From Hormiphora californensis (taxonomy: Eukaryota > Animalia > Ctenophora), in assembly GCA_020137815.1 (NCBI GenBank), contig CM035351.1, positions 248,001 through 312,000 of the forward strand: 64,000 bases of DNA. Direction: 5' to 3'. This document shows, piece by piece, positions 19,311 to 59,900 of this stretch (the first letter of the stretch is position 1; every line of letters starts with the position of its first letter). The position numbers and the translations under genes were made by a program. Below the pieces are notes generated by a model. That model was not told where the DNA came from. It ran no database searches and worked only from the letters and a program-made list of their open reading frames with translations.

Positions 19311-19599
19311 ATATCCTTTAATATGCAATGGCGAGAACGATACTGTCGATTAACAAGAACTACTACTTCCCAAAATCTCAAAGCCCATTTAACTGAAAGT
19401 TTCTTTTCTTGCCTTTTCAATGACATGGCAAGAAATCAAAATTAGAAAGAAAATAGGAAAGGGATCGGAAATACAGGAACGGTAGTTGCAAGAAAGAGAA
19501 AGAGAGATCAGGTGTTCCTAGCGACATTTCTCCAGGTGCATGGGTCAGCACACAGTACTCGACAATCATATTGTACCGAGACTTGATGAGAATGGCCCC

Positions 19600-20195: not shown

Positions 20196-20951
20196 TGAGA
20201 GCGACAGAGCGTGCTGTTTGTAGTAGGACGGTACTAGCAGTACACGGTAAAAAACATGCTGTTATGATATACCTATTGGGTGGCGGCCCTGATTTGATGG
20301 GAGGTCCAATCATATTAAGTAGGGGAAGTGTTTGTACTGATGGAAGTGTTTGTAGTACTCCTGATGATGATGATAGTAAACATCTAGCATACAGCTGCTG
20401 TGTGTTGGTCCTTGGAAGACGCCATGGCCCCCCTCATAAATCATAATACAAAATCATCTATATTACTAGTAAGCTAGGAAGTATAACAGGGGGTAGGCCA
20501 AAGGCAGAAGCCTGATACATAAAACATCAACCGGTACACCTTTCCAAGTTTGACTTGCAACCTGCTTCTAACACAATAACACATGTGACATGGCTGAGTG
20601 AATTGTCAGGACCATCTAACAGACTTTATCATATAATACTGAAGTCGGCACCTCAAACATTCGTCTCTACCAGATTCAGGATTCGCGTGGGAACAAAGAC
20701 GGTCGCGACGTGCCCAAGATTCTGGACGAGACTGATTATTCTAAGAATTCATGAAGACCCGACTGGGATTAGTTTGGAGCTCTGTGGCCGGCATAGATAA
20801 ATAATGAACGGGTTACGACTTACGGGCCTTGAGTGATTGGAAATTGGACCATTTTTTTTTAATTTTTTTTAAAAGGGGGGAGGGTGGCGGCCAACATCGG
20901 CCTGAATATAAATACGTGTAGACACTTGACAATGATAAAAACTGTAATAAA

Positions 20952-21135
20952 TTAAATATAAAATGAGTCTATTGCCCCACTTGATATAGCTGCTCGTCCC
21001 TGTTGCCCTCGCCCCTCGCCCCTCAATCTACCCCGATGCCCCCTGATGGAAACAGTTATTGATCGCACCATGGCGAATGATAGTCTGAGTCGAAGATAAC
21101 GGATGCATTGGTCGTAGGTGTATCCCGTTTGGCAA
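20952..21135 (-). pseudogene. C-terminal fragment of a CRE-type RLE nuclease
   Basis: YDQCIRYLRLRLSFAMVRSITVSIRGHR resembles the C-termini of the RLE ORFs at 45226 and 46155. Confidence 0.65.
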
Positions 21136-23225: not shown

Positions 23226-25026
23226 AGGAGGTAGGTTGGCATACTGCCACCCTTCTTGACATCCTTGGCAGTGAGGCCCTTTAGTCGGTCGTTAACCTTG
23301 TGGATATCAATATTCTGATCTTTTGAGAGAGGATCGAACCTGGATAACTTCCTCAGTAGCTCACCATTGATGAACTGAAAACATGGGTGGTTAGATCTTC
23401 TAATAACTTGAATCAGATGGGGGCCGGGGTGAGGGGTGGTTAGATATTCTAATAACTTGAATCAGTTATTAAATATATGGGTGGTTAGATTGTCTAATTT
23501 GTAGGTTAGAACATGGATTCAACTCAGGCCCAGTGGCACTAATTAATCAGAAGTTTTACATTAACTTGTTGAGTACTGGCCACTAGGGGGGGGGGGGTAC
23601 TAAATAGTTACCGTTTTGATTTTAGTCCACTAGGGGGGGGGGGTACTAGATAGTTACCGTTTTGATTTTAGTCCACTAGGGGGGGGGGGGTACTAAATAG
23701 TTACCGTTTTGATTTTAGTCCACTAGGGGGGGGGGTACTAAATAATTACCGTTTTGATTTTAGTCCACTAGGGGGGGGGGGTACTAAATAGTTACCGTTT
23801 TGATTTTAGTCCACTAGGGGGGGGGGGGTACTAAATAATTACCGTTTTGATTTTAGTCCACTAGGGGGGGGGGGGTACTAAATAGTTACCGTTTTGATTT
23901 TAGTCCACTAGGGGGGGGGGGTACTAAATAATTACCGTTTTGATTTTAGTCCACTAGGGGGGGGGGGGGGGTACTAAATAATTACCGTTTTGATTTTAGT
24001 CCACTAGGGGGGGGGGGGGTACTAAATAATTACCGTTTTGATTTTGGTCCACTAGGGGGGGGGGGGTACTAAATAATTACCGTTTTGATTTTAGTCCACT
24101 AGGGGGGGGGGGTACTAGATAATTACCGTTTTGATTTGGTCCACTAGGGGGGGGGGTACTAAATAATTACCGTTTTGATTTGGTCCACTAGGGGGGGGGG
24201 TACTAAATAATTACCGTTTTGATTTTAGTCCACTAGGGGGGGGGGTACTAAATAATTACCGTTTTGATTTTAGTCCACTAGGGGGGGGGGGTACTAAATA
24301 GTTACCGTTTTGATTTTAGTCCACTAGGGGGGGGGGTACTAAATAATTACCGTTTTGATTTTAGTCCACTAGGGGGGGGGGGGGGGTACTAAATAATTAC
24401 CGTTTTGATTTTAGTCCACTAGGGGGGGGGGGGGTACTAAATAATTACCGTTTTGATTTAGTACACGGGGGGGGGGTACTAAATAATTACCGTTTTGATT
24501 TTAGTCCACTAGGGGGGGGGTACTAAATAGTTACCGTTTTGATTTTAGTCCACTAGGGGGGGGGGGTACTAAATAATTACCGTTTTGATTTTAGTCCACT
24601 AGGGGGCTAGGGGGGGGGGGGTACTAAATAATTACCGTTTGTTTAGTCCCCTAGGGGGGGGGGGGGGATACTAATAATTACCGTTTGATTTTAGTCCATA
24701 GGGGGGGGGGTACTAAGATAATTACCGTTTTGATTTAGTCCACTCGGGGGGGGGGTACTACAAGATACCCTTAATTTTAGTCCACTAGGACACAGGGTAG
24801 GGGGGGGTACTAAATAATTACCGTTTTATTTCAGACAGGGGGGGGTTTTTAAATAAGAGGGACTGTTGAGTTTAGTCCATAGGGGGGGGGTACAAATAAT
24901 ACGTTTGATTAGTAGCACTAGGGGGGGGACTGAAGTTACCGTTGGATTTTTGTCCACTAGGGGGGGTTATATTACTTTTTGCAGGGTGGGGGGGTCTAAA
25001 TAATTACCGTTTGATTTTAGTCCATA

Positions 25027-25107
<81 letters not shown>

Positions 25108-28100
25108 TTACCGTTTTGATTTTAGTCCACTAGGGGGGGGGGTACTAAATAATTACCGTTTGATTTTAGTCCACTAGGGGGGGGGGGTACTAAAATATTA
25201 CCGTTTGATTTTAGTCCACTAGGGGGGGGGGGGTACTAAATAAGTTACCGTTTTGATTTTAGTCCACTAGGGGGGGGGGGGTACTAAATAATTACCGTTT
25301 TGATTTTAGTCCACTAGGGGGGGGGGGGTACTAAATAATTACCGTTTTGATTTTAGTCCACTAGGGGGGGGTACTAAATAGTTACCGTTTTGATTTTAGT
25401 CCACTAGGGGGGGGGGGTACTAAATAATTACCGTTTTGATGTTAGTCCACTAGGGGGGGGGGGTACTAAATAATTACCGTTTTGATTTTAGTCCACTAGG
25501 GGGGGGGGGTACTAAATAATTACCGTTTTGATTTTAGTCCACTAGGGGGGGGGGGGGTACTAAATAGTTACCGTTTTGATTTTAGTCCACTAGGGGGGGG
25601 GGGGTACTAAACATTTACCGTTTTGATTTTAGTCCACTAGGGGGGGGGGGGTACTAATTAATTACCGTTTTGATTTTAGTCCACTAGGGGGGGGGGGGTA
25701 CTAAATAGTTACCGTTTTGGGGGGGGGGGTACTAAATAGTTACCGTTTTGATTTTAGTCCACTAGGGGGGGGGGGGTACTAAATAATTACCGTTTTGATT
25801 TTAGTCCACTAGGGGGGGGGGGGGTACTAAATAATTACCGTTTTTATTTTAGTCCACTAGGGGGGGGGGGGTACTAAATAGTTACCGTTTTGATTTTAGT
25901 CCACTAGGGGGGGGGGGTACTAAATAATTACCGTTTTGATTTTAGTCCACTAGGGGGGGGGGGTACTAAATAGTTACCGTTTTGATTTTAGTCCACTAGG
26001 GGGGGGGGGGTACTAAATAATTACCGTTTTGATTTTAGTCCACTAGGGGGGGTACTAAATAATTACCGTTTTGATTTTAGTCCACTAGGGGGGGGGTACT
26101 AAATAATTACCGTTTTGATTTTAGTCCACTAGGGGGGGGGGGGTACTAAATAATTACCGTTTGGGGGGGGGGTACTAAATAATTACCGTTTTGATTTTAG
26201 TCCACTAGGGGGGGGAGGTACTAAATAATTACCGTTTTGATTTTAGTCCACTAGGGGGGGGGGGGGGTACTAAATAGTTACCGTTTTGATTTTAGTCCAC
26301 TAGGGGGGGGGGGGGTACTAAATAGTTACCGTTTTGATTTTAGTCCACTAAGGGGGGGGGGTACTAAATAGTTACCGTTTTGGGGGGGGGGGGGGGGGGG
26401 GGTACTAAATAATTACCGTTTTGATTTTAGTCCACTAGGGGGGGGGGGGGGGGTACTAAATAATTACCGTTTTGATTTTAGTCCACTAAGGGGGGGGGGG
26501 GTACTAAATAATTACCGTTTTGATTTTAGTCCACTAGGGGGGGGGGGTACTAAATAATTACCGTTTTGATTTTAGTCCACTAGGGGGGGGGGGGTACTAA
26601 ACATTTACCGTTTTGATTTTAGTCCACTAGGGGGGGGGGGGTACTAAATAATTACCGTTTTGATTTTAGTCCACTAAGGGGGGGGGGGGGTACTAAATAA
26701 TTACCGTTTTGATTTTAGTCCACTAGGGGGGGGGGGGTACTAAACATTTACCGTTTTGATTTTAGTCCACTAGGGGGGGGGGGGGTACTAAATAGTTACC
26801 GTTTTGATTTTAGTCCACTAGGGGGGGGGGGTACTAAATAATTACCGTTTTGATTTTAGTCCACTAGGGGGGGGGGTACTAAATAATTACCGTTTTGATT
26901 TTAGTCCACTAGGGGGGGGGGTACTAAATAATTACCGTTTTGATTTTAGTCCACTAGGGGGGGGGGGGTACTAAATAGTTACCGTTTTGATTTTAGTCCA
27001 CTAGGGGGGGGGTACTAAATAATTACCGTTTTGATTTTAGTCCACTAGGGGGGGGGGGGGTACTAAATAATTACCGTTTTGATTTTAGTCCACTAGGGGG
27101 GGGGGTACTAAATAATTACCGTTTTGATTTTAGTCCACTAGGGGGGGGGGGTACTAAATAGTTACCGTTTTGATTTTAGTCCACTAGGGGGGGGGGGGGT
27201 ACTAAATAATTACCGTTTTGGGGGGGGGGGGGTACTAAATAATTACCGTTTTGATTTTAGTCCACTAGGGGGGGGGGGTACTAAATAATTACCGTTTTGA
27301 TTTTAGTCCACTCGTGGAGGTCTGCCTCTCCACAGATGCCCAACATCAACATTACTACTTGGATCACAGTAGCAATAATGGGAGGAGGTTCATTGTAACT
27401 CTTTATCTCAGACAGGGCACTAGGATGAGGTTATTATATGTTAGAGAGGGCACTGATATGAGGTTATAGATTGTCAAAAGAAGTTGGGAGAGATATGGGT
27501 AGGTGAAAGTAATAGTACTATGATATATCTGTGATGAGAGTTGGATCCGGTTGGATCATGCAGCCCCTTCTCAGTTCTTACTTGACATCCATTGATCTTC
27601 TTCTTGAGGGAGGGGCAGGGTGGGGTATAACAAGGGAGGGGGTTATAACAGGGGTCGGGGAGAGGGGGTTGTAGCCCCGTTCTAACTAACTTGACATCCA
27701 TTGATGACATCCATCTTGAGGGAGGGGGGGCGGGGTGGGGTATAACAAGGGAGGGGGTTACAGGGAGAGGGGAGAGGGGGTTGTAGCCCCGTTCTAAACT
27801 AACTTGACATCCATTGATGACATCTTCTTGAGGGAGGGGGCGGGGCGGGGTATAACAAGGGAGGGGGTTACAGGGGTCGGGGAGAGGGGGTTGTAGCCCC
27901 GTTCTAACTTACTTGACATCCATTGATCTTCTTCTTGAGGGGGTGGGGTGGGGTGGGGTATAACAAGGGAGGGGGTTATAACAGGGGTCGGGGAGAGGGG
28001 GGTTGTAGCCCCGTTCTAACTAACTTGACATCCATTGATGACATCTTCTTGAGGGAGGGGGCGGGGCGGGGTATAACAAGGGAGGGGGTTACAGGGGTCG

Positions 28101-38936: not shown

Positions 38937-39420
38937 AATCCTGGCTACGCTAGGAAAATAACATGATATTGCATATAAAATTGAGCTTTAAAATAAGAAA
39001 AGGAGATTACAGAGAGAACTGTGAAGTTGTCCCACCATCAAAATATCTCAGCGATAATGGGTCTTTTGAGACCGGGGGAAAGAAAAATGCTCTGAGACCT
39101 GAGACCTCAACAGTCAACAGTCAACAATCTTCTCCGTTCTGTCCACTCTCACTTTAACAGTTAAATCTTGTCAAAACTAGAACAGTCGTGAGAAGAAGCT
39201 TTAGAATACAGATAGTGAATGGAAGGGGCCGAGCCAGTTCCGAAAGATGGTGACGGGAGAACCAGATATTTATTATTTACTGGAAAGTGTTTTTTCTGAA
39301 TTCACTAACCCCAACACCGATTGGCATCACTTTCCGACAGCCGAAGAGAAGCTGCCGAAGAGAGAAAGGGGGTAACCGTATGAAGAGTTAATCGCAATGA
39401 CTAATGAGTCTCATTCACAT

Positions 39421-39568
39421 GAGGCCCCTCGGAAATGTTCAAGTCATGCACAATCAAGTCACGCCCACCAATCACAGCTCAGAAAGCGTGGAGTGCTTCG
39501 CGCGTTCTGAGCTGTGATTGGTGGGCGTGACTTGATTGTGCATGACTTGAACATTTCCGAGGGGCCTC
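39421..39568. mobile_element. Palindromic MITE with AT TSD
   Basis: GAGGCCCCTCGGAAATG...CATTTCCGAGGGGCCTC; the empty site CATTCACATTGGGTTCGA is seen in the paralogous segment at ~46045. Confidence 0.85.
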
Positions 39569-40250
39569 ATTGGGTTCGAAAGTGTTGGAAAAATGAAAAT
39601 CGCTAAAACGTTTCGAAAATTTGAAAAAATCTCGCGAGCTGATAGTGTAGTGGAAGCTCTTACGGTAATTCCCACTGTGGGGGGAGTCAGATGACTGGAT
39701 TACTGACTCCTTGTGGCAGCCCATTGTCTATCTCAGGGGGTATGGTAGTCCCGCGGGGGACTAGGGAGGGGGCAGGGGGAGGGTATCTCTCGGGGAAAAA
39801 CTAGGGAGTGGTCCCACAGCCGCGGTCCTGGGGCCTGATGGACCAATACGGGTGCGGTCAACCTGCAATAAATCGGCATTGCCCAAACAGAGGGAATCCA
39901 GCCCTATGACCTTATACCACAACACTCAAGTCTATTTAACAGAACTTAGAGTGCCAACATTGCTAATACGCCAGGGCTCCTGTTGCCATCCTTAAACAGG
40001 CACCGGCAGGTCCAAATCAATTGGCCGGGTGTTCCAAAAAACACGTATAACACATATGTAGCTTATACACCATTGCTTACACGCCAGGGCTCCTGTTGCC
40101 ACCCTAAAACAGGCACCGGCGGGTCCAAATCAATTGGCCGGGTGTTCCCTTCCTAAAAACCGAGTAGGGGCATGGTGCCCCTGGGGAACCCCTGCCCAAT
40201 TTTCAAATAGCGGCACAGGACAAGTATATCTGAATTGCACTGGAACCAAC

Positions 40251-40320
40251 AGCTCCGTGGCCGAATGGCCACAAGTTGGGCTAAGAAACACAAGATCCCA
40301 GGTTCAAATCCCGGTCAAGA
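40251..40320 (+). other. Degenerate tRNA-like / SINE-head segment
   Basis: A-box-like TGGCCGAATGG and B-box GGTTCAAATCC at tRNA-like spacing; the acceptor stem does not pair. Confidence 0.45.
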
Positions 40321-41354
40321 GATTTATAATATTAGACATCTTTTTTCACTTTTGCTTGATATTGAAGCATTTAAGTTTCCGATTATACCGGCGATTTAAC
40401 ACGATAAATACCGAATACTAGACAGGGAGACTAGGTGAACCTACCCTTACCATCGTACCTGAACCAAAAGAAGAACCCTACACCGAACAAAGTCAAGATC
40501 TAACTAAACTAACTACTTAATTTGACCACGAAATCCGGGTTTTTTAGGTGAGCCAAAGCCGACCTCCAAAAGAAAATCGATTCATTACAAGTAGCGTGAC
40601 GCGTCCATATGTGAGGACCCGGCGCTATCGTTCGGCAAAAACCAATTCTGGGAAAACCCCAGTACCGTAAGACATACACTCTTTGGATTTCCAGATGATC
40701 AAAGAAAATAGTAAATACCTATGACAATAAACAAAACCTAAAAACGGGGCACCGCTATATTAAACGGTAACCCCAAAAACGGGGCACCACGTTGGTAACG
40801 AAGTTACCCCTCTGTCGAGGGGTAACAGAACCGCCTACCCGTTTTTAAGTAAATTCCTTAAAAAGTATCGCTGACACGTCCAGGCATGGCACCCCACCCC
40901 ACAATTACTATACTTTACGTAGGGCGTGATGGCACGCCAGGACATGATATGTCACTAGTCCAAGATTTTAGCCTCCGAATCTGCTGTTTTTTACCAACTT
41001 TGTCGAATTTTCACGGCCAAACTATAACTTAATTTGAATTGATTTTATCACAATTGTCCTAGGTATAGTCCACAGCACCATCTCACCGAATATGAAGTTT
41101 CAAAAACGCGATCTCCATCGAAATTCAACTTCAAAAACAGTGTTAATGATGAAATAACATCAAAATTAACATACTACACAATTCTTGAGACAATTTCATG
41201 GCTGTAGAAAAAGGATTTAGCCAAATCTGTTTTATGGTTGAGGCGGTATTAATTTTTGAAAAATATGAAACCGATTCTGTTACCCCTACATAGGGCATTG
41301 CGATAGTAAGGTACGTTTTAGCGTGCCCGCAATGTAGGGGGAACTGCGTTACCA

Positions 41355-42830
41355 AGGCACCACGGCAACCTAAAATCGGGGCGCCACTGCACTATTATAC
41401 GGCAACCCCAAAAACGGGGCACCACTGCATTATACGGCAACCCAAAAACGGGGCGCCACTGCACTATACGGCAACCCCAAAAACGGGGCACCACTGTCTC
41501 ACGCGGCAACCCCAAAAACGGGGCACCACTGCATTATACGGCAACCCAAAAACGGGGCGCTACTGCACTATACGGCAACCCCAAAAACGGAGCACCACTA
41601 CATTATACGACAACCCAAAAACGGGGCACCACTGCATTATACGGCAACTCTAAAAACGGGGCACCACTGTCTCACGCGGCAACCCCAAAAACGGGGCACC
41701 ACTGTCTCACGCGGCAACCCCAAAAACGGGGTACTACTGCATTATACGGCAACCCAAAAAACGGGGCACCACTGCATTAAACAGCTACTCTAAAAACGGG
41801 GCACCACTGTCTCACGTGGCAACCTCAAAAAAGGGGCACCACTGCATTATACAACAACCCCAAAAACGGGGCACCACTGCATTATACGGCAACTCTAAAA
41901 ACGGGGCACCACTGTCTCACGTGGCAACCTAAAAAAAAAGGGGCACCACTGCATTATACAACAAACCCAAAAACGGGGCACAACTGCATTATACGGCAAC
42001 CCACTGCACTATACGGCAACCCCAAAAACGGGGCACCACTGCATTATACGGCAACTCAAAAACGGGGCGCTACTGCACTATACGGCAACCCCAAAAACGG
42101 AGCACCACTACATTATACGACAACCCAAAAACGGGGCACCACTGCATTATACGGCAACTCTAAAAACGGGGCACCACTGTCTCACGCGGCAACCCCAAAA
42201 ACGGGGCATCACTGTCTCACGCGGCAACCCCAAAAACGGGGCACCACTGCATTATACGGCAACCCAAAAAACGGGGCACCACTGCATTAAACGGCTACTC
42301 TAAAAACGGGGCACCACTGTCTCACGTGGCAACCTCAAAAAAGGGGCACCACTGCATTATACAACAACCCCAAAAACGGGGCACCACTGCATTATACGGC
42401 AACTCTAAAAACGGGGCACCACTGTCTCACGTGGCAACCTCAAAAAAGGGGCACCACTGCATTATACAACAAACCCAAAAACGGGGCACAACTGCATTAT
42501 ACGGCAACCCAAAAACGGGGCGCCACTGCACTATACGGCAACCCCAAAAACGGGGCACCACTGCATTATACGGCAACCCAAAACGGGGCGCCACTGCACT
42601 ATACGGCAACCCCAAAACGGGGCACCACTGCACTATACGACAACCCAAAAACGGGGCACCACTGCATTAAACGGCAACTCTAAAAATGGGGCACCACTGT
42701 CTCACGCGGCAACCTCAAAAAAGGGGCACCACTGCATTATACAACAACCCCAAAAACGGAGCACCACTGTCTCACACGGCAACACAATAACATGGCACCA
42801 CTGCAATATATGTAACGGCAACCCCAGCAA
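41355..42830. repeat. ~35-bp divergent minisatellite with higher-order blocks
   Basis: GGCAACCCCAAAAACGGGGCACCACTGCATTATAC variants. Confidence 0.92.
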
Positions 42831-43794
42831 AACTGATTACGAAGTCTGGATTACTCCGATGAGTCACTAAAGGCTACCTCCCCCCGGCCCCCTCCCTAAA
42901 AAACCGATCCGTCACAGATAGCCTCAACAACAGCCAAGTCGCAAAGCCCTGAGCATAACAGGTCGGATCTGAAACCAAACGGTATGCAACAGTACCGGAA
43001 ACGGTAATCACAACTGCAAAGTCGCCAGCCACTAGAGATATGGTATTGGTACCCCTATTCTAGATGGAACCCAATAACAAACAGTGCCACATGGGCCGAC
43101 TCCTCTTCAAATGCAAATGCATGCGAACGACTCGGTGGACCGACCCCTCCCGCTATACCCAAACCATAAGGTATTAGCCATAACAAGGCAATGCGGGAGT
43201 GAAAAAATAGTGAGACGCTCTAGTTATGGAGACGTCGCTATCGTTCGGCAACTACCTACACCTGGGACAACCCAGGAACGTAAGACTGACACGCTTGTGT
43301 TAGTGCATCCGCTGTCGTAGGTAGGATTTATGCAAGAACTTATTAAGTAGGATCGTCTGTCGGTCTGCATCTCTAAGGTCATCGCTGTCGGAGGGGACAA
43401 CGGGGTAACCCGTTTGAACACTGAAGGCGGCTTTGACCTGGGGGTGTGGGTCGGCGCTCGGGTTGTCGGTGTGTGGGCGCCAAGGGGAGATCCTACGGAA
43501 ATAAGGGCTAGCTGATCCCCAACGTCAGCAGTGTGGATGGAAGTACGGAGGTACATATACACACACACACACACACGGTAATTCCCAGTTTTCGAGCGTG
43601 GGAAAGTTTTCAAACCGTGGGAAAAGAGAGATACATACAATAACTAAGAAAAAACAATTTATTTTTTATAGTTATTGTATGTATCTCTCTTTTCCCACGG
43701 TTTGAAAACTTTCCCACGCTCGAAAACTTTCCCACGGGGCGTGGGAATTACCGTAAGAGCTTCCACTAGTGGAAGCTCTTACGGTAATTCCCAC

Positions 43795-45139
43795 TACGGT
43801 GGCAGATTCCGGCCAAGTGTTTTTTTAGTCAAGTGAAATATTTTTGCTTGAAGTTTTATAAAAAATTTATTTCAAAATAAAAATAAACATGTCCTTAAAA
43901 TTATTGGCCGGAATCTGCCACGCGAGTGGCAGATCTCGGCCAAGATTCTAAAAAAACCTTGGCCAGAATCTGCCAACCACGTGGCAGATTCCGGCCAACA
44001 AACTGAAACTTACTTATATCAAAGCGAAAACCGCTGTACCCGACTAATTTTGATACGCTGAATCACGTAAGCAACTTTTCCAATCCCTCAGAGGTCGGGA
44101 AAGTATCCTAATTGAGCATAATAGGGTCTAATTGACCCCACTTACAACTTTTCACCTGGAAACGATAGACGCTTATGTGAAGGCACTTTTCCGACTAATT
44201 TTGATAAGCTGAATCACGTAAGCTATTTTTCAAAGCCCCCGAGGTCGGGAAAGTGCCCTAATTGAGCAATTAAGGCCAATTAGACCTAATTATACTTAAT
44301 TAGGCCAAATTCCCGACCTCGGAGGGCTTGGAAAAGTTGCTTACGTGATTCAGCGTATCAAAATTAGTCGGAAAAGTGCCTTCACATAAGCGTCTATCGT
44401 TTCCAGGTGAAAAGTTGTAAGTGGGGTCAATTAGACCCTATTATGCTCAATTAGGACACTTTCCCGACCTCTGAGGGATTGGAAAAGTTGCTTACGCGAT
44501 TCAGCGTATCAAAATTAGTCGGGTACAGCGGTTTTCGCTTTGATATAAGTAAGTTTCAGTTTGTTGGCCGGAATCTGCCACGTGGTTGGCAGATTCTGGC
44601 CAAGGGTTTTTTAGAATTTTGGCCGAGATCTGCCACTCGCGTGGCAGATTCCGGCCAATAATTTTAACGACATGTTTATTTTTATTTTGAAATAAAATTT
44701 TTATAAAACTTCAAACAAAAATATTTTAGTGGAAGCTCTTACGGTATTCCCACGGCCGTGGGAAAAGGGAGATAAATAGAAATACTAAGTGAGAGAAATT
44801 TCTCTCTCTTAGTATTTCTATCTATCTCTCTTTTCCCACGGTCGTGGGAATACCGTAAGAGCTTCCACTATTTTAGTGGAAGCTCTTACGGTATTTCCCA
44901 CGCCCCGTGGGAAAGTTTTTGACCGTGGGAAAGTTTTCAAACCGTGGGAAAAGAGAGATACATACAATAACATACAAAAAATAATTATTTTTTTATAGTT
45001 ATTGTATGTATCTCTCTTTTCCCACGGTTTGAAAGCTTTCCCACGGTCAAAAACTTTCCCACGGGGCGTGGGAAATACCGTAAGAGCTTCCACTATTTCA
45101 CTTGATTGAAAAAACTCTTGGCCGGAATCTGCCACCGTA
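43795..45139. mobile_element. Foldback element with 7-bp TSD TTCCCAC, itself carrying two Academ-like MITEs
   Basis: TACGGTGGCAGATTCCGGCCAAG and its reverse complement; arms invert around ~44280; TSD at 43788-43794 and 45140-45146. Confidence 0.85.
44727..45095. mobile_element. Two tandem Academ-like MITEs (44727-44870, 44874-45095) separated by TTT
   Basis: TTT before, between and after; the empty site is shown by the opposite foldback arm. Confidence 0.88.
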
Positions 45140-45225
45140 TTCCCACGCCCCGTGGGAAAGTTTTCGACCGTGGGAAAGTTTTCAAAGCGTGGGAAAAGAG
45201 AGATACATACAATAACTAAGACACC

Positions 45226-45756
45226 ATGGCCGAGTTGTTCAGGTATGCAGGATTGAAACCGGTGAATACAGAACAGCTGCTTCTACCGTGTGAAGGACAT
45301 ACATTTCCTGTCAGTGCCAACACCAGGGACGATGCCCGAATGGACATAGTATGCCGAGGTCTATGGCGGGATATGGAGGCATCCTACCTCGATGTGCGGG
45401 TGTTTCACCCTAATGCTCCCTCCTACCAGAAAACATCAATCGCTCAGCTACACAGAACTCACCAGAACCAGAAGAAAATGGCCTATTTGAGGAGGGTTCT
45501 AAACGTAGAGCAGGGTAGCTTCACTCCTCTTGTGTTTGCTACTTCAGGAGGCTTCGCACCAGAGGTTAAACGAGTTCTGGAATGCGTTGGACACAAAATC
45601 TGCTCCAAGCACCAAGAAGGACTCAGTGAGACGATGTCTTTTATAAGACAAAAGCTCAGATTTAGCCTGTTGAGATCAACCTTAGTAGCATTGAGGGGCA
45701 CTAAGAGGCGTGTGGTACCATTTATGCCGAGCGAAATTGATTTCAGAGTGACGTAA
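45226..45756 (+). CDS. Stand-alone restriction-like endonuclease (RLE, PD-(D/E)XK) of CRE-type non-LTR family, 176 aa
   Basis: ARMDIVCRGLW..YLDVRVFHPNAPSY..KKMAY..FTPLVFATSGG..LRFSLLRS; ATG in CACCATGG context; no RT or CCHC finger upstream. Expression unknown. Confidence 0.75.
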   Translation: MAELFRYAGLKPVNTEQLLLPCEGHTFPVSANTRDDARMDIVCRGLWRDMEASYLDVRVFHPNAPSYQKTSIAQLHRTHQNQKKMAYLRRVLNVEQGSFTPLVFATSGGFAPEVKRVLECVGHKICSKHQEGLSETMSFIRQKLRFSLLRSTLVALRGTKRRVVPFMPSEIDFRVT

Positions 45757-46154
45757 TTTATTCTGTGTTTACCTTTATAAATCGCTAGGGACGTGCGTGG
45801 TGTACCAGGAGTGGTGAATTATGCAGCCATTCTTTATTGTGTCTCTACCTCTTTTCTCCGTGTCCTAACACAATATACCTATGGTACACCCGCACACGTG
45901 TTCCTTTTTTTTTAAAACATTTTCCCAATAGACGAGAAAATTCACTAACCCCAACACCGATTGGCATCACTTTCCAACAGCCGAAGAGAAGCTGCCGAAG
46001 AGAGAAAGGGGGTAACCATATGAAGAGTTAATCGCGATGAGTCTCATTCACATTGGGTTCGATCATTTGCCCCCGGTGTTGGGGTTAGTAATAAATAAAT
46101 CTTAAAATCACTCAAATATTACTATACATAAATAAATAAAATCTCACACATGTT

Positions 46155-46695
46155 TCAAATATTGAAGTCCATGTTTTCCAATCCTGTTGGGGCGTACTTT
46201 GTACGGCATCCTCTCAGCGACCTCAGGGTGGCTACCAGTAGGCAGAATCTGAGCCGCCTTCTGATTGCCGCCAAAGCCTCATTGTAGATTTCTCCGTGTT
46301 TCTTTTCAATTAGTTTGGCTGTCTTCTTAATCGCTTTGTCCATTTCAGGGCCAACACCACCTGTTGTGGTAAACACTAGTGGAGAAAAGGTCCCGCCCTC
46401 GACAATCTGGACTCGTCTCATGTAACATGTCTTCTTGGACTTCTCGTGGTTTTTGTACAGAGATGATGGCTTGATGTTGAGATAAGAAGCTGCCATCGGG
46501 TGACAGACTCTGACATCCATGTAGGACATCTGGTCAGGAGCCCACAATCCCATGCACACGATGTCCATACGGGCGTCTCTATCTGTATTTGCCCACGGAT
46601 ATTGCTGCATTTCTTGGTCGTAATCCTCACATGGTTGTAGGAGTTTTTCAGTTTCTATAGACCTGACACCAGCATAGGATAAGATATCCCAATAG
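46155..46695 (-). CDS. Second, divergent stand-alone RLE frame (ATG at 46610; frame open to ~46695)
   Basis: DILSYAGVRSIETEKLLQPCED..ARMDIVCMGLW..YMDVRVCHPMAASY..KKTCY..FSPLVFTTTGG..LRFCLL; may be a truncated fragment. Confidence 0.7.
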
Positions 46696-46999
46696 ACTCA
46701 TTTTATATTTAATTTATTATTTATTTTTTGTAGTTATTGTATGTATCTCTCTTTTCCCACGCTTTGAAAACTTTCCCACGGTCAAAAACTTTCCCACGGG
46801 GCGTGGGAATTACCGTAAGAGCTTCCACTATGAGATTTCGTTTCATATCAGTTTTGCTTCTGCCAAAAGGAACAATTAAATGTAACGCGCCAAAGATTAC
46901 ACAATGCGTTGCAAAATTGAACTTTGCATATATGCGCGCGCTGCGATTTGAAAAATATGAAAAAATTTAAAAGTTTTAAAAACTAAAAAGTTCAAAAAA

Positions 47000-47295
47000 T
47001 AGGGATCCCTAAAAAAGTTCAGTATTTACACAGAGTTTACACAGTCTTTACACAGTCGTTACACCCAGAGCGGCGCGTGCTGCGTTTTGCGGCTTTTTCT
47101 AAGAAAATATTGGATTGTGTGCTGCACAATTGGGTAAATTGAGCGCTGCGGCGAAAAAAGTTTCCGAAAACGCTGCAAATCGAGTGCGAAAGACGCAGTC
47201 TTTACACCCAGAGCGGCGCGGGCGCTCTGGGTGTAACGACTGTGTAAAGACTGTGTAAACGCTGTGTAAATACTGAACTTTTTTAGGGATCCCTA
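47000..47295. mobile_element. MITE
   Basis: TAGGGATCCCTAAAAAAGTTCAGTATTTACACAG and its reverse complement. Confidence 0.8.
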
Positions 47296-47318
47296 TAAAA
47301 ATTTGACCAAATCTACCC

Positions 47319-47473
47319 TAAAGTCGGATTTTTTGAAGTTGTCACCCCCCTTCTCGTGCGCGGAATGTTTTTGCGCGTCACATGACATGTTAACGTGTGG
47401 TGTGCGCGTCAAAATTGATAAATTTCACACGCGCAGTCGTTTTGGGGTGACAACTTCAAAAAATCCGACTTTA
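47319..47473. mobile_element. MITE
   Basis: TAAAGTCGGATTTTTTGAAGTTGTCACCCC and its reverse complement. Confidence 0.75.
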
Positions 47474-47567: not shown

Positions 47568-48191
47568 ATGACCGAATTACACGAAGCCTGTGCAATCGGG
47601 GACGAAGAAGTGGTACAGGATTTAATTTTCAAAGGTTGATAATCAAAGGAATTAATTTCTTACTTGCTGAATAGCTTACCCAATAGCTAGAAAGAGGTAT
47701 TGAAATAATTCAACTCTCAATTTCAGGATCTAATTTGAACGAAAAGGACCAAGAATGGGGCGGAAGGTCACCACTACATTGGGCAGTCAGTAACTGTCAT
47801 TTCTACGTAACTCAACTTCTTATAAACTCTGGTAAGTGGAAAGGGGAGCAGGGGACTCACCTACATCCCTGCCAATACCTCCATTTTTCCCTAAATCACA
47901 ACTTCTTTAGGAGCGAGTGTCAATGCAAGGATGAACAATGGCTGGACTCCACTTCATTGTGCGGCAGAGGCAGGCAGTAAGAAGATAGTGAAACTATTGC
48001 TAGACCACGGCTCTAACCCCTGGGCAAGTGATCGGTACGGTGACACACCCCTTGAAGTGGCACGCGTTTATCACAAAGTCGAGGTGGTGGAGGTTCTCGA
48101 GAGTTTTGTGAACTCCAACGCCCCTGATTGCACTCTGGAGGAGGAGGAGAAGCTGCTGGAGCTTGAGGAGCTACAACTTGATACCGGGTGA
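47568..48191 (+). CDS. ANKRD66: Ankyrin repeat protein, ANKRD66-like; exons 47568-47634, 47727-47831, 47911-48191
   Basis: MTELHEACAIGD..NEKDQEWGGRSPLHWA..GWTPLHCAAEAG..DRYGDTPLEVARVY; phases consistent; AATAAA at ~48312. Confidence 0.78.
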
Positions 48192-48603: not shown

Positions 48604-51600
48604 ATGGTACGAAACGGGGAACCCTCTGCAAAGAAGCGCAAGTCTGTGAAAGTGTGTCCTTCCGAGGTATCTGACATGACCAAGGTAGCTAGTTTTGTAC
48701 ATTTGGTTGTTTGATATAGTTGCATGACCAAGGTAGCTAGTTTTGTTGTGTTGTAGTACGTTACTAGTAGTAACCAAGGTAGTAATTCTTTGTTGTGTTG
48801 TAGTAACCAAGGTAGTAATTCTTTGTTGTGTTGTAGTAACCAAGGTAGTAATTCTTTGTTGTGTTGTAGTAACCAAGGTAGTAATTCTTTGTTGTGTTGT
48901 AGTAACCAAGGTAGTAATTCTTTGTTGTGTTGTAGTAACCAAGGTAGTAATTCTTTGTTGTGTTGTAGTAACCAAGGTAGTAATTCTTTGTTGTGTTGTA
49001 GTAACCAAGGTAGTAATTCTTTGTTGTGTTGTAGTAACCAAGGTAGTAATTCTTTGTTGTGTTGTAGTAACCAAGGTAGTAATTCTTTGTTGTGTTGTAG
49101 TAACCAAGGTAGTAATTCTTTGTTGTGTTGTAGTAACCAAGGTAGTAATTCTTTGTTGTGTTGTAGTAACCAAGGTAGTAATTCTTTGTTGTGTTGTAGT
49201 AACCAAGGTAGTAATTCTTTGTTGTGTTGTAGTAACCAAGGTAGTAATTCTTTGTTGTGTTGTAGTAACCAAGGTAGTAATTCTTTGTTGTGTTGTAGTA
49301 ACCAAGGTAGTAATTCTTTGTTGTGTTGTAGTAACCAAGGTAGTAATTCTTTGTTGTGTTGTAGTAACCAAGGTAGTAATTCTTTGTTGTGTTGTAGTAA
49401 CCAAGGTAGTAATTCTTTGTTGTGTTGTAGTAACCAAGGTAGTAATTCTTTGTTGTGTTGTAGTAACCAAGGTAGTAATTCTTTGTTGTGTTGTAGTAAC
49501 CAAGGTAGTAATTCTTTGTTGTGTTGTAGTAACCAAGGTAGTAATTCTTTGTTGTGTTGTAGTAACCAAGGTAGTAATTCTTTGTTGTGTTGTAGTAACC
49601 AAGGTAGTAATTCTTTGTTGTGTTGTAGTAACCAAGGTAGTAATTCTTTGTTGTGTTGTAGTAACCAAGGTAGTAATTCTTTGTTGTGTTGTAGTAACCA
49701 AGGTAGTAATTCTTTGTTGTGTTGTAGTAACCAAGGTAGTAATTCTTTGTTGTGTTGTAGTAACCAAGGTAGTAATTCTTTGTTGTGTTGTAGTAACCAA
49801 GGTAGTAATTCTTTGTTGTGTTGTAGTAACCAAGGTAGTAATTCTTTGTTGTGTTGTAGTAACCAAGGTAGTAATTCTTTGTTGTGTTGTAGTAACCAAG
49901 GTAGTAATTCTTTGTTGTGTTGTAGTAACCAAGGTAGTAATTCTTTGTTGTGTTGTAGTAACCAAGGTAGTAATTCTTTGTTGTGTTGTAGTAACCAAGG
50001 TAGTAATTCTTTGTTGTGTTGTAGTAACCAAGGTAGTAATTCTTTGTTGTGTTGTAGTAACCAAGGTAGTAATTCTTTGTTGTGTTGTAGTAACCAAGGT
50101 AGTAATTCTTTGTTGTGTTGTAGTAACCAAGGTAGTAATTCTTTGTTGTGTTGTAGTAACCAAGGTAGTAATTCTTTGTTGTGTTGTAGTAACCAAGGTA
50201 GTAATTCTTTGTTGTGTTGTAGTAACCAAGGTAGTAATTCTTTGTTGTGTTGTAGTAACCAAGGTAGTAATTCTTTGTTGTGTTGTAGTAACCAAGGTAG
50301 TAATTCTTTGTTGTGTTGTAGTAACCAAGGTAGTAATTCTTTGTTGTGTTGTAGTAACCAAGGTAGTAATTCTTTGTTGTGTTGTAGTAACCAAGGTAGT
50401 AATTCTTTGTTGTGTTGTAGTAACCAAGGTAGTAATTCTTTGTTGTGTTGTAGTAACCAAGGTAGTAATTCTTTGTTGTGTTGTAGTAACCAAGGTAGTA
50501 ATTCTTTGTTGTGTTGTAGTAACCAAGGTAGTAATTCTTTGTTGTGTTGTAGTAACCAAGGTAGTAATTCTTTGTTGTGTTGTAGTAACCAAGGTAGTAA
50601 TTCTTTGTTGTGTTGTAGTAACCAAGGTAGTAATTCTTTGTTGTGTTGTAGTAACCAAGGTAGTAATTCTTTGTTGTGTTGTAGTAACCAAGGTAGTAAT
50701 TCTTTGTTGTGTTGTAGTAACCAAGGTAGTAATTCTTTGTTGTGTTGTAGTAACCAAGGTAGTAATTCTTTGTTGTGTTGTAGTAACCAAGGTAGTAATT
50801 CTTTGTTGTGTTGTAGTAACCAAGGTAGTAATTCTTTGTTGTGTTGTAGTAACCAAGGTAGTAATTCTTTGTTGTGTTGTAGTAACCAAGGTAGTAATTC
50901 TTTGTTGTGTTGTAGTAACCAAGGTAGTAATTCTTTGTTGTGTTGTAGTAACCAAGGTAGTAATTCTTTGTTGTGTTGTAGTAACCAAGGTAGTAATTCT
51001 TTGTTGTGTTGTAGTAACCAAGGTAGTAATTCTTTGTTGTGTTGTAGTAACCAAGGTAGTAATTCTTTGTTGTGTTGTAGTAACCAAGGTAGTAATTCTT
51101 TGTTGTGTTGTAGTAACCAAGGTAGTAATTCTTTGTTGTGTTGTAGTAACCAAGGTAGTAATTCTTTGTTGTGTTGTAGTAACCAAGGTAGTAATTCTTT
51201 GTTGTGTTGTAGTAACCAAGGTAGTAATTCTTTGTTGTGTTGTAGTAACCAAGGTAGTAATTCTTTGTTGTGTTGTAGTAACCAAGGTAGTAATTCTTTG
51301 TTTGTTCTACTTGATATATTTGCCTTCTCAATTCCTCAACAGTCAACACTACTACATGATGGCTCTCCTCCCCCCAGGAACGAGAGATATTCAGTACGAT
51401 GGAGTATATGGAGTCTGCACCGGACTCGGATGGTCCTGTGAAATCCTGGATTGCTAACCAGACCGAGGGTAAAGTGGGAGACTTTGTAGATAATAAGATG
51501 GTGTTAGGAGAGGTGGTAAAGGAGGTGGTTAGTGCTGTGACGGGAGAAGTTCTTGCAACAGTATATTGTGCGGTTGATTCTACTGCAATTGTTTCATGTA

Positions 51601-53948: not shown

Positions 53949-56900
53949 ACAAACCTACGGACTGAGTAAATGTGATCTTTTGTAATTCGAGTGGTAAGGT
54001 GATTCGGTTTGGTGGGTAAAATAATCCCATACTCTGAGGGAGGCTCCCTTTATAACATTGGGTGGGTAAAATAATCCCATACTCCCTGTGAGGGAGGCTC
54101 CCTTTATAAACCACCCCCCCTGCTGATATTTCCCGCAGTCTACTGTGGTATATCAGATAATTCCCTCCCTCTGTTGTCAGTGCCCATTCACACCTCATAA
54201 TTCCGGGGGTCGGTTTATAAGAAATAACCACGGCTAGTAAAGTGATGAAATTTGATAATCCCCTACGGGGATTATCACACGTTCTTCCCCTCGGTCGCTT
54301 CGCTCCCTCGTGGAGAACTAGTGATAACCCCCTCCTGCGTCGGGGGTTATCAAATTTCATCCCTGCACTAGCCGGGGTTATCTATATTATAACATTGGGT
54401 GGGTAAAATAATCCCATACTCCCTGTGAGGGAGGCTCCCTTTACAGCTGCATACACAGACACGTCTGTTACACACACTCTGTCGGGGTGTGTGTACAGAT
54501 CTACTGTTACTATATGATACCCGGAAGGCGTGTTATACCCTCCCCTCCCTTCAACTCACACCTCTCATATAATATAGATAACCCCGGCTAGTGCAGGGAT
54601 GAAATTTGATAACCCCCGACGCAGGAGGGGGTTATCACTAGTTCTCCACGAGGGAGCGAAGCGACCGAGGGGAAGAACGTGTGATAATCCCCGTAGGGGA
54701 TTATCAAATTTCATCACTTTACTAGCCGTGGTTATTTCTTATAAACCGACCCCCGGAATTATGAAAGGTGTGAATGGGCACTGACAACAGAGGGAGGGAA
54801 TTATCTGATATACCACAGTAGACTGCGGGAAATATCAGCAGGGGGGTGGTTTATAATACCCTCCCCACTCGCACCCTCTACTTCCTATTTAACAGCTGTG
54901 TATTCTCAGCAGCATAGATCCCCACATCATTCCCACTACACATAGAGTTGCTACATCTCGTCCCCCACCATTCCCACTACACATAGGAAGCTACATCTCG
55001 TCCCCCACCATTCCCACTACACATAGGAAGCTACATCTCGTCCCCCACCATCCCCACTACACATAGGAAGCTACATCTCGTCCCCCACATCATTCCCACT
55101 ACACATAGGAAGCTACATCTCGTCCCCCACCATTCCCACTACACATAGGAGTTGCTACATCTCGTCCCCCACCATTCCCACTACACATAGGAAGCTACAA
55201 CTCGTCCCTCACCATTCCCACTACACATAGGAAGCTACAACTCGTCCCTCACCATTCCCACTATACATAGGAAGCTACATCTCGTCCCCCACCATTCCCA
55301 CTACACATAGGAAGCTACATCTCGTCCCCCACCATCCCCACTACACATAGGAGTTGCTACATCTCGTCCCCCACCATCCCCACTACACATAGGAAGCTAC
55401 ATCTCGTCCCCCACCATTCCCACTACACATAGGAAGCTACATCTCGTCCCCCACCATTCCCACTACACATAGGAGTTGCTACATCTCGTCCCCCACCATT
55501 CCCACTACACATAGGAAGCTACATCTCGTCCCCCACCATTCCCACTATACATAGGAGTTGCTACATCTCGTCCCCCACCATTCCCACTACACATAGGAGT
55601 TGCTACATCTCGTCCCCCACCATTCCCACTACACATAGGAAGCTACATCTCGTCCCCCACCATTCCCACTACTACACATAGGAGTTGCTACATCTCGTCC
55701 CCCACCATTCCCACTACACATAGGAGTTGCTACATCTCGTCCCCCACCATTCCCACTACACATAGGAGTTGCTACATCTCGTCCCCCACCATTCCCACTA
55801 CACATAGGAAGCTACATCTCGTCCCCCACCATTCCCACTACACATAGGAAGCTACATCTCGTCCCCCACCATTCCCACTACACACAGGAGTTGCTACATC
55901 TCGTCCCCCACCATTCCCACTACACATAGGAGTTGCTACATCTCGTCCCCCACCATTCCCACTACACATAGGAAGCTACATCTCGTCCCCCACCATTCCC
56001 ACTACACATAGGAAGCTACATCTCGTCCCCCACCATTCCCACTACACATAGGAGTTGCTACATCTCGTCCCCCACCATTCCCACTACACACAGGAGTTGC
56101 TACATCTCGTCCCCCACCATTCCCACTACACACAGGAGTTGCTACATCTCGTCCCCCACCATTCCCACTACACATAGGAAGCTACATCTCGTCCCACACC
56201 ATTCCCACTACACATAGGAAGCTACATCTCGTCCCCACACCATTCCCACTACACATAGGAGTTGCTACATCTCGTCCCCCACCATTCCCACAACACATAG
56301 GAAGCTACATCTCGTCCCCCACCATTCCCACAACACATAGGAAGCTACATCTCGTCCCCCACCATTCCCACTACACATAGGAGTTGCTACATCTCGTCCC
56401 CCACCATTCCCACTACACATAGGAAGCTACATCTCGTCCCCCACCATTCCCACTACACATAGGAGTTGCTACATCTCGTCCCCCACCATTCCCACAACAC
56501 ATAGGAAGCTACATCTCGTCCCCCACCATTCCCACTACACATAGGAAGCTACATTCCCACTACACATAGGAAGCTACATCTCGTCCCACATCATTCCCAC
56601 TACACACATAGGAGTTGCTACATCTCGTCCCCACACCATCCCCACTACACACAGGAGTTGCTACATCTCGTCCCCACACCATCCCCACTACACACAGGAG
56701 TTGCTACATCTCGTCCCCACACCATCCCCACTACACACAGGAGTTGCTACATCTCGTCCCCCCACCATCCCCACTACACACAGGAGTTGCTACATCTCGT
56801 CCCCACACCATCCCCACTACACACAGGAGTTGCTACATCTCGTCCCCACACCATCCCCACTACACACAGGAGTTGCTACATCTCGTCCCCACACCATTCC

Positions 56901-59900
56901 CACTATAACACATAGGAGTTGCTACATCTCGTCCCCACACCATCCCCACTACACATAGGAAGCTACATCTCGTCCCCACACCATCCCCACTACACATAGG
57001 AGTTGCTACATCTCGTCCCCCACCATTCCCACTACACATAGGAGTTGCTACATCTCGTCCCCACACCATTCCCACTACACATAGGAAGCTACATCTCGTC
57101 CCCCACCATTCCCACTACACATAGGAGTTGCTACATCTCGTCCCCCACCATTCCCACTACACATAGGAGTTGCTACATCTCGTCCCTCACCATTCCCACT
57201 ACACATAGGAAGCTACAACTCGTCCCTCACCATTCCCACTATACATAGGAAGCTACATCTCGTCCCCCACCATTCCCACTACACATAGGAAGCTACATCT
57301 CGTCCCCCACCATTCCCACTACACACAGGAGTTGCTACATCTCGTCCCCCCACCATTCCCACTACACATAGGAGTTGCTACATCTCGTCCCCCACCATTC
57401 CCACTACACACAGGAGTTGCTACATCTCGTCCCCCCACCATCCCCACTACACACAGGAGTTGCTACATCTCGTCCCCACACCATCCCCACTACACACAGG
57501 AGTTGCTACATCTCGTCCCCACACCATCCCCACTACACACAGGAGTTGCTACATCTCGTCCCCCACCATTCCCACTACACACAGGAGTTGCTACATCTCG
57601 TCCCCCAATAACACCACTCTCTCTCTCTTAGGGAAGACCTCAGCAAGTATTGGTCGAGTGTTGGTTCAGCAGCCTGTGTATGATCGGTTCTGTAAGGTCC
57701 TCAAGGAGCGTGCACCCCGTCTAGTGGTGGGATCTCCCCTGGACGGTTGTGTGGATGTGGGCTGCTCTGTCCAGGACACTTCTGATGTGTTGGAGGGGAT
57801 GGTTGCTGATAATGGGCACTTGGAGAAAGTTGTGGTGAGTGTGGATTGAGGTGTTTTAAAAAGTTGTGGTGAGTGTGGATTGAGGTGTTTTAGAAAGTTG
57901 TGGTGAGTGTGGATTGAGGTGTTTTAGAAGTGTGGTAAATGAGAAAGTTGTGGTGAGTGTGGATTGAGGTGTTTTAGAAGTGTGGTAAAGTTGTGGTGAG
58001 TGTGGATTGAGGTGTGTGGTAAATTCAGACACTACTTAGCTACCATAGCAACCCGGCTGAAAGGGGGGTACACTGCCGATAATTTACTGGCCGCCATGGG
58101 GCAAATAATTTAGGAGAAATGCCATCTGGTGACTTACTTGTACACAGTACACACACATATGGCCCTAGAGTGTTATTAGTGATCTTATATGACATGTGTG
58201 TATTTAGAATCTAGATATATGACGTCATAATTACCCCTCTAATTATCCCCAGTCAGAAAGAAAGGGGTCTACCATGCCCTGCACGGTTGTGTTCGGTGTT
58301 CAGCCCAGTTCCAGCTTGTGGTCTAATGACCCCCTTGGACCTGTTCTGTGTGTGGCCCCGTTTAGGACGGCTAAAGAGGCCACCGCTCTGCTAAACCACT
58401 CCCCCAGAAATAGTGGTGTATCGGTTTGGAGCGAGTCTAACTCTCTTATAATGCAGGTAACATGACCATATTAGGTAATGACCATATTAGGTAATGACCA
58501 TATTAGGTAATGAATATGGTAAAGGTGGAGTAGCTTATGTAGACACAGCTCCCACAATATTGTATGATAGCTAGAGTGAGAATAAGGGCGGTGTTAATAT
58601 GCAAGCTGTGTATAAGTTAATGTGAACTAGCACGGAACAGAATATATGTGACATGAGCTTACTGATCCCTCCGCGCTATAATATTACTTATGTTACTGAT
58701 ACTTTCTAGCGTGTATATCATAGACCGCTCGGGGCTTGGTAATGAAATTACCTCTCCGCGCTATAATATGCAATATGCTTAATAACAGGGGTGACTTCGT
58801 AACCAAGCCCGGGGCCTTCTTCCATATTACAATATCATTACAATAATATTCAATGTTCCATTTCCCCTCAGTTGGTCAAGTCTTGCATATTGTAATACAT
58901 ATTAGTTCACAATAATATTCCATGTTCCATTCCCCCCTTCTCAGTTGGTCAAGTCCCTCAATTCGGAGATAATATGGGTCAATACACACGGAGGAGCAGG
59001 ATCACTGAATGGAGCAGAGGCCCTGAGGGCATTTACCAAGGCACCCTCAGGGGTTAGATTGGTCCTGGACCTGCAACCAACAAACATAGCTAAACCTGTT
59101 GTAGGAGAAAGGTGAATTCCATCAACTTTGGCGTGTTTTCTGATTTCTGAAAGTTGATCGAACTATAACTTAGCTTCACCCTCCCTCACCCAAACCTCAC
59201 CCAAACCTCACCCTCCCTCTGTTCAGTGTAAATGAGACAGTGAAGATGCTGATTGGCGGTGCCCTAAAGAGGTCGTGTGGGGAGACGTATCGTGACGTGT
59301 ACAACAGTAGTGGAGACAAGATTGCATCAGTACCAGATGCCAATAAGAAGGATCTGAGAGATTGTGTTGAAGCAGCGGCAAAGGCTCAGCCTGGGTAAGT
59401 GCAATTGTTAGAGGGAGATCAGGGAAATACTTCCCTTGTTCGACCCTCTCACATAACTCTCACAACTCTCATAAAGGAGGAGGATTAGATAATCGGCCCG
59501 TGTTTATAACTCTTTATATCTCTCAGGTGGGCAGGTAAATCAGCGTTCAACCGATCTCAAATCCTGTATTTCTTTGCTGAGAATCTGAGCTCACGAAAAG
59601 GGGAATTCGTTTCTCTCATCGAGAAATGCGATCCGGGATTAACTAATGCATCAGAACAAGTTAGTTGGCATACAATCACTAGATCCAAAAACCAAACAAG
59701 TTTGGTGGATAGCCGGGGCCGCAGAAATTAAAAAACGTGCGAAAGTTTTGATACATGAACTTTCGGGGCCTGGGGTGCTGTTAAATTCGCGTTTCCATGA
59801 TCATAACCAGCAACACTTTCAAACTATACGCCAGGAAAACTATTGCAATGATCAAATTATCATTATTAATTTATATAACACATTTTCATACATACAGATC

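What the first reader, a model, noticed from the sequence alone, without database searches (positions are those of the whole stretch)
43767..46830. TIR-bounded DNA element carrying two convergent RT-less RLE nuclease cassettes
Seen: after removing the nested foldback (43795-45139), ~100-bp TIRs (TAGTGGAAGCTCTTACGG...CATACAATAACTA) enclose two tail-to-tail, mutually divergent RLE frames. Both keep R-x-D..DV..KKxxY and FxPLVFxTxGG without internal stops, and the first ATG lies ~8 nt inside the TIR. Established: this domain is normally the C-terminal nuclease of CRE-type non-LTR ORFs, following the RT and a CCHC finger. Inference: a cut-and-paste (Academ-like) vehicle has captured RLE nucleases as cargo, either as an active homing/drive-like accessory or as a packet of passive fragments.
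Basis: partly seen in the sequence, partly recalled or inferred. Interest (0 to 1): 0.8.

Follow-up and report, generated by a model that had tools for sequence, protein, structure and literature searches.

The report
LINE tails nested in miniature transposon
Two cut-off tail ends of ordinary retrotransposons sit back to back inside a small non-coding DNA transposon, likely a passive pile-up of insertions at one site rather than a captured nuclease cassette.

Summary
The layout is real; the captured-nuclease reading is not supported. Each frame is the 3' end of a different reverse-transcriptase-bearing, CRE-like LINE family: RLE-A is 91% identical to a 630-aa RT protein, RLE-B 85% to a 958-aa one, and a tree rejects grouping A with B. 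The 'start' ATG is internal Met455 of the LINE; B has no in-frame ATG near its TIR. Both are cut just after the RH motif, which R2 needs for full DNA binding and cleavage. In three public runs of the best-matching organism, RLE-A continues without a mismatch into the LINE zinc finger and no contig joins it to the TIR; the TIR pair occurs empty. The outer element really starts at 39643, has a 3-bp TSD (TGA) and holds further nested insertions. Verdict: most likely a rare or single nest of 5'-truncated LINEs in a non-autonomous TIR element. No genome was held, so copy number was not counted directly; one 98%-identical 176-aa record could not be placed.

The parts
39640..39647 (+). Left 3-bp TSD (TGA, 39640-42) and true first five bases (TAGTG) of the outer TIR element
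   Evidence: same TGA at 46831-33
39648..43768 (.). Nested element of the same TIR family, inserted 5 nt inside the outer left end; TSD GTG (39645-47, 43769-71); itself split by a 3.9-kb insert (39675-43574, ends in a CA run, 13-nt duplication)
43769..43794 (+). Outer left TIR, second piece
43795..45139 (.). Foldback element of another family, 7-bp duplication at 43788-94 and 45140-46; arms 97% complementary over 410 nt
44727..45095 (.). Two empty (non-coding) copies of the TIR family, 44727-44870 and 44874-45095, each with TSD TTT; the empty site survives in the other foldback arm
45140..45221 (+). Outer left TIR, third piece; last two bases overlap the LINE fragment (2-nt microhomology)
45220..45756 (+). 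RLE-A: 5'-truncated 3' end of LINE family A, residues 453-630 of the RT protein P0123; ATG 45226 is its Met455
45757..45915 (+). Likely 3' UTR of LINE A with a long stem-loop (z -4.3); exact 3' end not fixed
45926..45933 (+). 8-nt word (10 nt with chance or LINE bases) repeated at 46690-97; likely TSD of the LINE B insertion
45936..46154 (-). Likely 3' UTR of LINE B with a long stem-loop (z -5.5); other copies carry a poly(A) tail at 45936, this one does not
46155..46689 (-). RLE-B: 5'-truncated 3' end of LINE family B, from about residue 783 of the RT protein P0183; no in-frame ATG until 46610
46690..46719 (.). 30-nt spacer, exact match to window 20945-20974; origin unresolved
46720..46833 (-). 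Outer right TIR (to 46830) and right TSD TGA

Best explanation
The region is a non-coding TIR element with 3-bp target duplications whose centre holds the 5'-truncated tails of two different RT-bearing LINE families, likely gathered passively by successive insertion at one locus. Inferred order: the empty TIR element inserted (TSD TGA); a LINE A copy integrated in its AT-rich centre, cut short at codon 453 with 2-nt microhomology and loss of about 7 central bases; a LINE B copy inserted in the opposite direction into A's tail, duplicating 8-9 bases; a foldback and a second copy of the TIR family landed in the left arm. The frames are likely open only because the copies are young and come from active families. 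Neither is predicted to work as a free nuclease, as both lack the zinc knuckle and the RH motif.
For: RT-bearing parents at 91% (158/173) and 85% (153/179). A and B each group with their own parent; held together p-AU 1e-52. 64 of 67 longer homologues have a CCHC finger and 59 of 67 an RH-type motif just upstream. In runs X1, X5, X6 the only cover of 45222-45233 is one contig per run that goes on into finger codons with 0 differences, and TIR contigs stop at 45217-45221; X3 gives the same picture. Empty TIR pair seen as joint 45221-46719 and as copies in the window. RLE-B runs on into finger-adjacent codons in a second organism. Poly(A)-type flanks at 45936 in 4 of 4 runs. A tail-to-tail pair of such LINEs without TIRs exists in 1 of 80 foreign loci (L013). 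RH mutations lower binding and cleavage in R2Bm (PMC4838377, passages).
Against: Both frames are stop-free and break within four codons of each other, which chance explains only moderately well. P0196 (176 aa, 172/176 identical, same start, 1799-nt contig) and P0003 could be further composite copies; their DNA could not be read. LINE A has no TSD and this LINE B copy has no poly(A). Only the left junction was tested at fine scale; contigs drop rare variants. The 30-nt spacer is unexplained. No genome, so no direct copy count.
Confidence: 0.85

Rival explanations
1. Passive capture and limited spread: the tail-to-tail pair formed elsewhere or here, was copied into the TIR element by gap repair, and the loaded element has moved as a Pack-type unit a few times, without any use of the frames.
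For: Cargo replaces about 7 central bases without a TSD, with 1-2 nt microhomology; 30-nt spacer matches a site 25 kb away; arms 99/100 identical; P0196 unplaced.
Against: No junction contig in X1, X5, X6 or X3; the 8-nt duplication fits insertion of B in place; the left arm is now broken by two inserts.
Confidence: 0.08
2. Active accessory nuclease: the TIR drives RLE-A from its native Met and the protein helps the element spread, as proposed for KolobokP or Fanzor.
For: Open frame with ATG 5-8 nt from the arm; confident PD-(D/E)xK model (pLDDT 89); catalytic D40, D56, K83, Y87 kept; two breaks at nearly the same codon.
Against: ATG is a LINE-internal Met present in 6 of 12 close relatives; no divergence from the LINE parent; B lacks a start; RH motif and finger missing; no transposase frame (longest stop-to-stop frame in 39643-46830 is 180 aa); junction not seen in other samples.
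Confidence: 0.03
3. Assembly artefact: repeat-rich reads were mis-joined at the palindromic centre of the TIR element.
For: Junction absent from the best-matching runs; very repetitive window.
Against: Four nested levels each close with their own duplication; the junction shows microhomology typical of real insertions.
Confidence: 0.04

Closest known systems
5'-truncated copies of RLE-type (CRE-like) non-LTR retrotransposons
   Same: RT, CCHC knuckle and C-terminal RLE in the parents; fold closest to R2; 3' ends with UTR and, in other copies, poly(A).
   Different: Nothing essential; here two families lie tail to tail inside a TIR element. The clade name CRE is recalled from motif pattern, not tested by an RT tree with named members.
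Non-autonomous Academ (AcademX-type) elements / MITEs
   Same: 3-bp TSD at three independent sites; AcademX makes 3-4 bp TSDs (PMC10045372, passage); TAG..CTA ends (Academ terminus recalled).
   Different: No transposase found, so the superfamily is not proven; Zator also makes 3-bp TSDs (same paper).
KolobokP (His-Me homing nuclease) and Fanzor1-carrying transposons
   Same: A nuclease frame between transposon ends (abstracts of PMC9587614 and PMC3627910).
   Different: Those are recurrent families with whole nuclease genes; here the domains are clipped, undiverged from LINE parents and not seen as a repeated unit.
Pack-type TIR elements with captured fragments (recalled)
   Same: Foreign fragments between intact TIRs.
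   Different: No second loaded copy shown; cargo looks inserted in place.

Membership tests
RLE-type non-LTR retrotransposon (parents) | RT domain upstream in the same ORF | tested here: met
   RVT_1 in P0123 and P0183; absent from the window copies
RLE-type non-LTR retrotransposon (parents) | CCHC knuckle then C-terminal RLE | tested here: met
   64 of 67 with finger, 65 of 67 C-terminal; same-organism contigs run into finger codons
RLE-type non-LTR retrotransposon (parents) | PD-(D/E)xK fold like R2 | tested here: met
   Z 11.0 and 9.6 to R2 structures, next 6.6; Foldseek E 6.5e-4
RLE-type non-LTR retrotransposon (parents) | 3' poly(A) or simple tail and TSD | tested here: inconclusive
   Family B has poly(A) in other copies and an 8-9 nt duplication here; A has no TSD and an unclear end
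CRE clade | RT phylogeny with named CRE members | not testable with these tools
   No named references on hand; atlas gives only RVT_1 clusters
Academ (AcademX type) | 3-4 bp TSD | tested here: met
   TGA, GTG, TTT; criterion from PMC10045372
Academ (AcademX type) | TAG...CTA termini | tested here: inconclusive
   Termini are TAG..CTA, but the criterion is recalled; the defining paper was not held
Academ (AcademX type) | Academ DDE transposase in an autonomous partner | not testable with these tools
   No genome; TIR pattern found nothing in two collections
TIR transposon with accessory nuclease (KolobokP / Fanzor type) | Loaded element is a repeated family | tested here: inconclusive
   No junction contig in 4 runs, which speaks against a common unit; rare copies can be dropped
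TIR transposon with accessory nuclease (KolobokP / Fanzor type) | Complete, independently evolving nuclease gene | tested here: not met
   Starts after RH motif; 0 differences to LINE contigs; B without start

The most novel reading that the evidence does not exclude
CRE-like LINEs break preferentially just after the RH motif, next to a native Met, so that truncated copies yield a finger-less 176-aa nuclease frame; a TIR element that has picked up such a frame transcribes it and spreads in some populations as a young TIR-RLE-RLE-TIR family, the birth stage of a Fanzor-like accessory nuclease. Hints: two breaks within four codons, about four more foreign loci starting at profile positions 100-119 (not significant), and P0196.
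Probability: 0.05. Interest if true: 0.7.

Novelty: new member of a known kind. Interest (0 to 1): 0.12.

Why it matters
As found, it matters little: it is a clean example of nested insertion, and it points to two young RLE-LINE families and one 3-bp-TSD TIR family, probably in a comb jelly (close relatives are labelled Pleurobrachia bachei by their source). If the loaded element proved to be a transcribed, multi-copy unit, it would be a rare look at a DNA transposon recruiting a retrotransposon nuclease.

Tried and rejected
Own genome: none held. Pfam: no family for either frame. PDB sequence search: nothing under E 0.5. Rfam 39500-47000: 36 matches, all hairpin-type and below gathering score, none in the cargo. 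TIR pattern scans: 0 in metagenome and viral contigs. RNA run X7 laid 0 records on the left junction: no evidence either way. Summed depths are not used as copy numbers; X5 and X6 show far higher RLE depth than X1 and X3 and their kind is only guessed as DNA. Origin of the pair by inverted duplication of one arm: rejected. TA-type TSD with GTGG ends: rejected by the empty site. Breakpoint hot spot after RH: about 4 independent of some 11 truncated foreign loci fall in one of six bins, on loci chosen by score; inconclusive. Variants in coding parts are 26 of 36 synonymous (taken from the 40 rows shown of 173); this reflects the LINE families, not the composite. Earlier scan notes: nothing. Literature searches listed no paper on a TIR element with RLE cargo; only listings were seen and Repbase is not searched. 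The 3.9-kb insert was not classified (one search failed on stop codons; one search found no other copy in the window).

Full report
What is in the sequence. Two stop-free frames converge at 45220-45756 (+, RLE-A) and 46697-46155 (-, RLE-B). They are 43% identical, have no Pfam family, and a confident model of A (pLDDT 89) matches the R2 retrotransposon endonuclease best (Z 11.0, rmsd 3.4, 135 aligned; Foldseek E 6.5e-4). They lie between arms that are 99 of 100 identical once nested inserts are skipped.

The boundaries need correcting. The bases at 43767-68 end a second copy of the same TIR family (39648-43768) that inserted five bases inside the outer left end and duplicated GTG. The outer element starts at 39643 and is flanked by TGA on both sides. 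Two more copies, without coding frames, sit in the foldback with TTT duplications, and the empty site survives in the foldback's other arm, which fixes the ends as TAG..CTA with a 3-bp TSD. A 3-4 bp TSD fits AcademX (PMC10045372, passages); the TAG terminus is my recall, as the defining paper was not held. No transposase is present: the longest frame in 39643-46830 is 180 aa.

Each frame is a LINE tail. Searches for longer relatives gave P0123 (630 aa, 158/173 identical to A) and P0183 (958 aa, 153/179 identical to B), both with an RT domain. In a 34-row tree A and B each pair with their own parent, and holding them together is rejected (p-AU 1e-52), so they are not two halves of an old inverted duplication. 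Of all 67 longer hits, 64 have a CCHC finger and 59 an RH-type motif just upstream. Of 80 metagenome loci, 63 of 73 with room show finger or linker upstream and 28 of 38 with room show RT; none has this TIR. The ATG at 45226 is Met455 of P0123, and 6 of 12 close relatives have Met there. B has an out-of-frame ATG at 46701 and no in-frame one until 46610. The name CRE rests on recalled motif pattern and was not tested with named references.

The domains are clipped. Both start after the RH motif (profile positions 110 and 112 against RH at 104). In R2Bm this motif is helix 1 of the endonuclease, and mutating it lowers DNA binding and cleavage (PMC4838377, passages); the knuckle lies just upstream in RLE LINEs (PMC5678591, passages). 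Loss of activity here is inferred from that homologue, not measured.

Is the loaded element a family? No genome was held, so I used public runs. On 45190-45290, runs X1, X5 and X6 (two samples) laid 16, 16 and 17 records. The depth over 45222-45233 equals a single record in each run, and that record continues into the LINE's finger codons with no differences; TIR records stop at 45217-45221 and go on as the empty centre (26 rows were not listed, but the depth table counts them). X3 shows the same single record and an empty joint 45221-46719 with seven letters between; a second organism continues B into finger-adjacent codons; all four runs show poly(T) flanks before 45936, the poly(A) end of family B. 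Limits: contigs drop rare variants, only the left junction was examined finely, the kind of these runs is guessed, and the one RNA run laid nothing.

How it likely formed. Shown: the TSDs, the 2-nt overlap at the left junction, the missing seven central bases, an 8-nt word on both sides of fragment B (chance about 4e-4 over 25 offsets) and UTR stem-loops (z -4.3, -5.5). Inferred: LINE A integrated, truncated, into the AT-rich centre; LINE B then inserted the other way into A's tail; the foldback and the second TIR copy broke the left arm. A foreign contig (L013) holds two such LINEs tail to tail with no TIR, one with poly(A) and one with a TSD of about 15 nt, so this pairing needs no vehicle.

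Results against this reading. The two breaks fall within four codons. About four independent foreign loci also start at positions 100-119, which is not significant on a score-selected set. P0196 (172/176 identical, same start, 1799-nt contig) and P0003 cannot be placed; any copy truncated between the previous Met and Met455 would give the same prediction, but a second composite is not excluded. A has no TSD, this B copy has no poly(A), and the 30-nt spacer matching 20945-20974 is unexplained. Listed variants are mostly synonymous (26 of 36), but they describe the LINE families.

Comparison. True accessory nucleases in DNA transposons exist: KolobokP (PMC9587614, abstract) and Fanzor1 (PMC3627910, abstract). 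This locus lacks their marks: no whole gene, no divergence from the donor, no repeated unit seen. PMC5751038 and PMC10294476 (passages) added nothing. Eight literature searches (listings only) showed no TIR element with RLE cargo; supplements and Repbase were not seen.

Verdict. Ordinary nested transposon debris, probably in a comb jelly; confidence 0.85, interest 0.12. The boldest reading not excluded, a nascent transcribed TIR-RLE family, has about 5%.

Noticed in passing
window 39675-43574: 3.9-kb insert in the nested TIR copy, ending in a CA run with a 13-nt duplication and holding a 35-bp satellite (41362-42810); not classified.
   Followed up: partly
window 39299-39420: 92% copy of the LINE B 3' end (45939-46053), followed by a hairpin-type insert.
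   Followed up: partly
window 20945-20974: Exact 30-nt match to the spacer at 46690-46719, lying between two 7-nt direct repeats; donor or short insertion unclear.
   Followed up: partly
window 45774-45908 and 45936-46095: Both 3' UTR stem-loops are matched by many more contigs than the coding parts, with varied flanks in two organisms; may be short truncated copies or SINE-like partners.
   Followed up: no
runs X5, X6 on window 45220-45290: LINE A contigs have depth 2,657-6,281 against 66 in X1; either RNA runs with a highly transcribed LINE or a recent expansion.
   Followed up: no
L013 1-2470: Two different CRE-like LINEs tail to tail without TIRs in another organism.
   Followed up: yes
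L001 650 and L008 350: CRE-like copy cut just after the RH position and joined to a TTA microsatellite.
   Followed up: partly
window 17363-19435 (-) and 2415-3413 (-): Other RT-bearing frames (RVT_1), not matched by the CRE-like parents.
   Followed up: no
window 46999-47296 and 47319-47473: Two further small inverted-repeat elements right of the finding, then an ankyrin-like exon pair near 47687-48191 (label recalled from motif).
   Followed up: no
window 7876-14350, 23580-27220, 48767-51306, 54919-57607: Long tandem arrays of 14, 46, 33 and about 41 bp.
   Followed up: no
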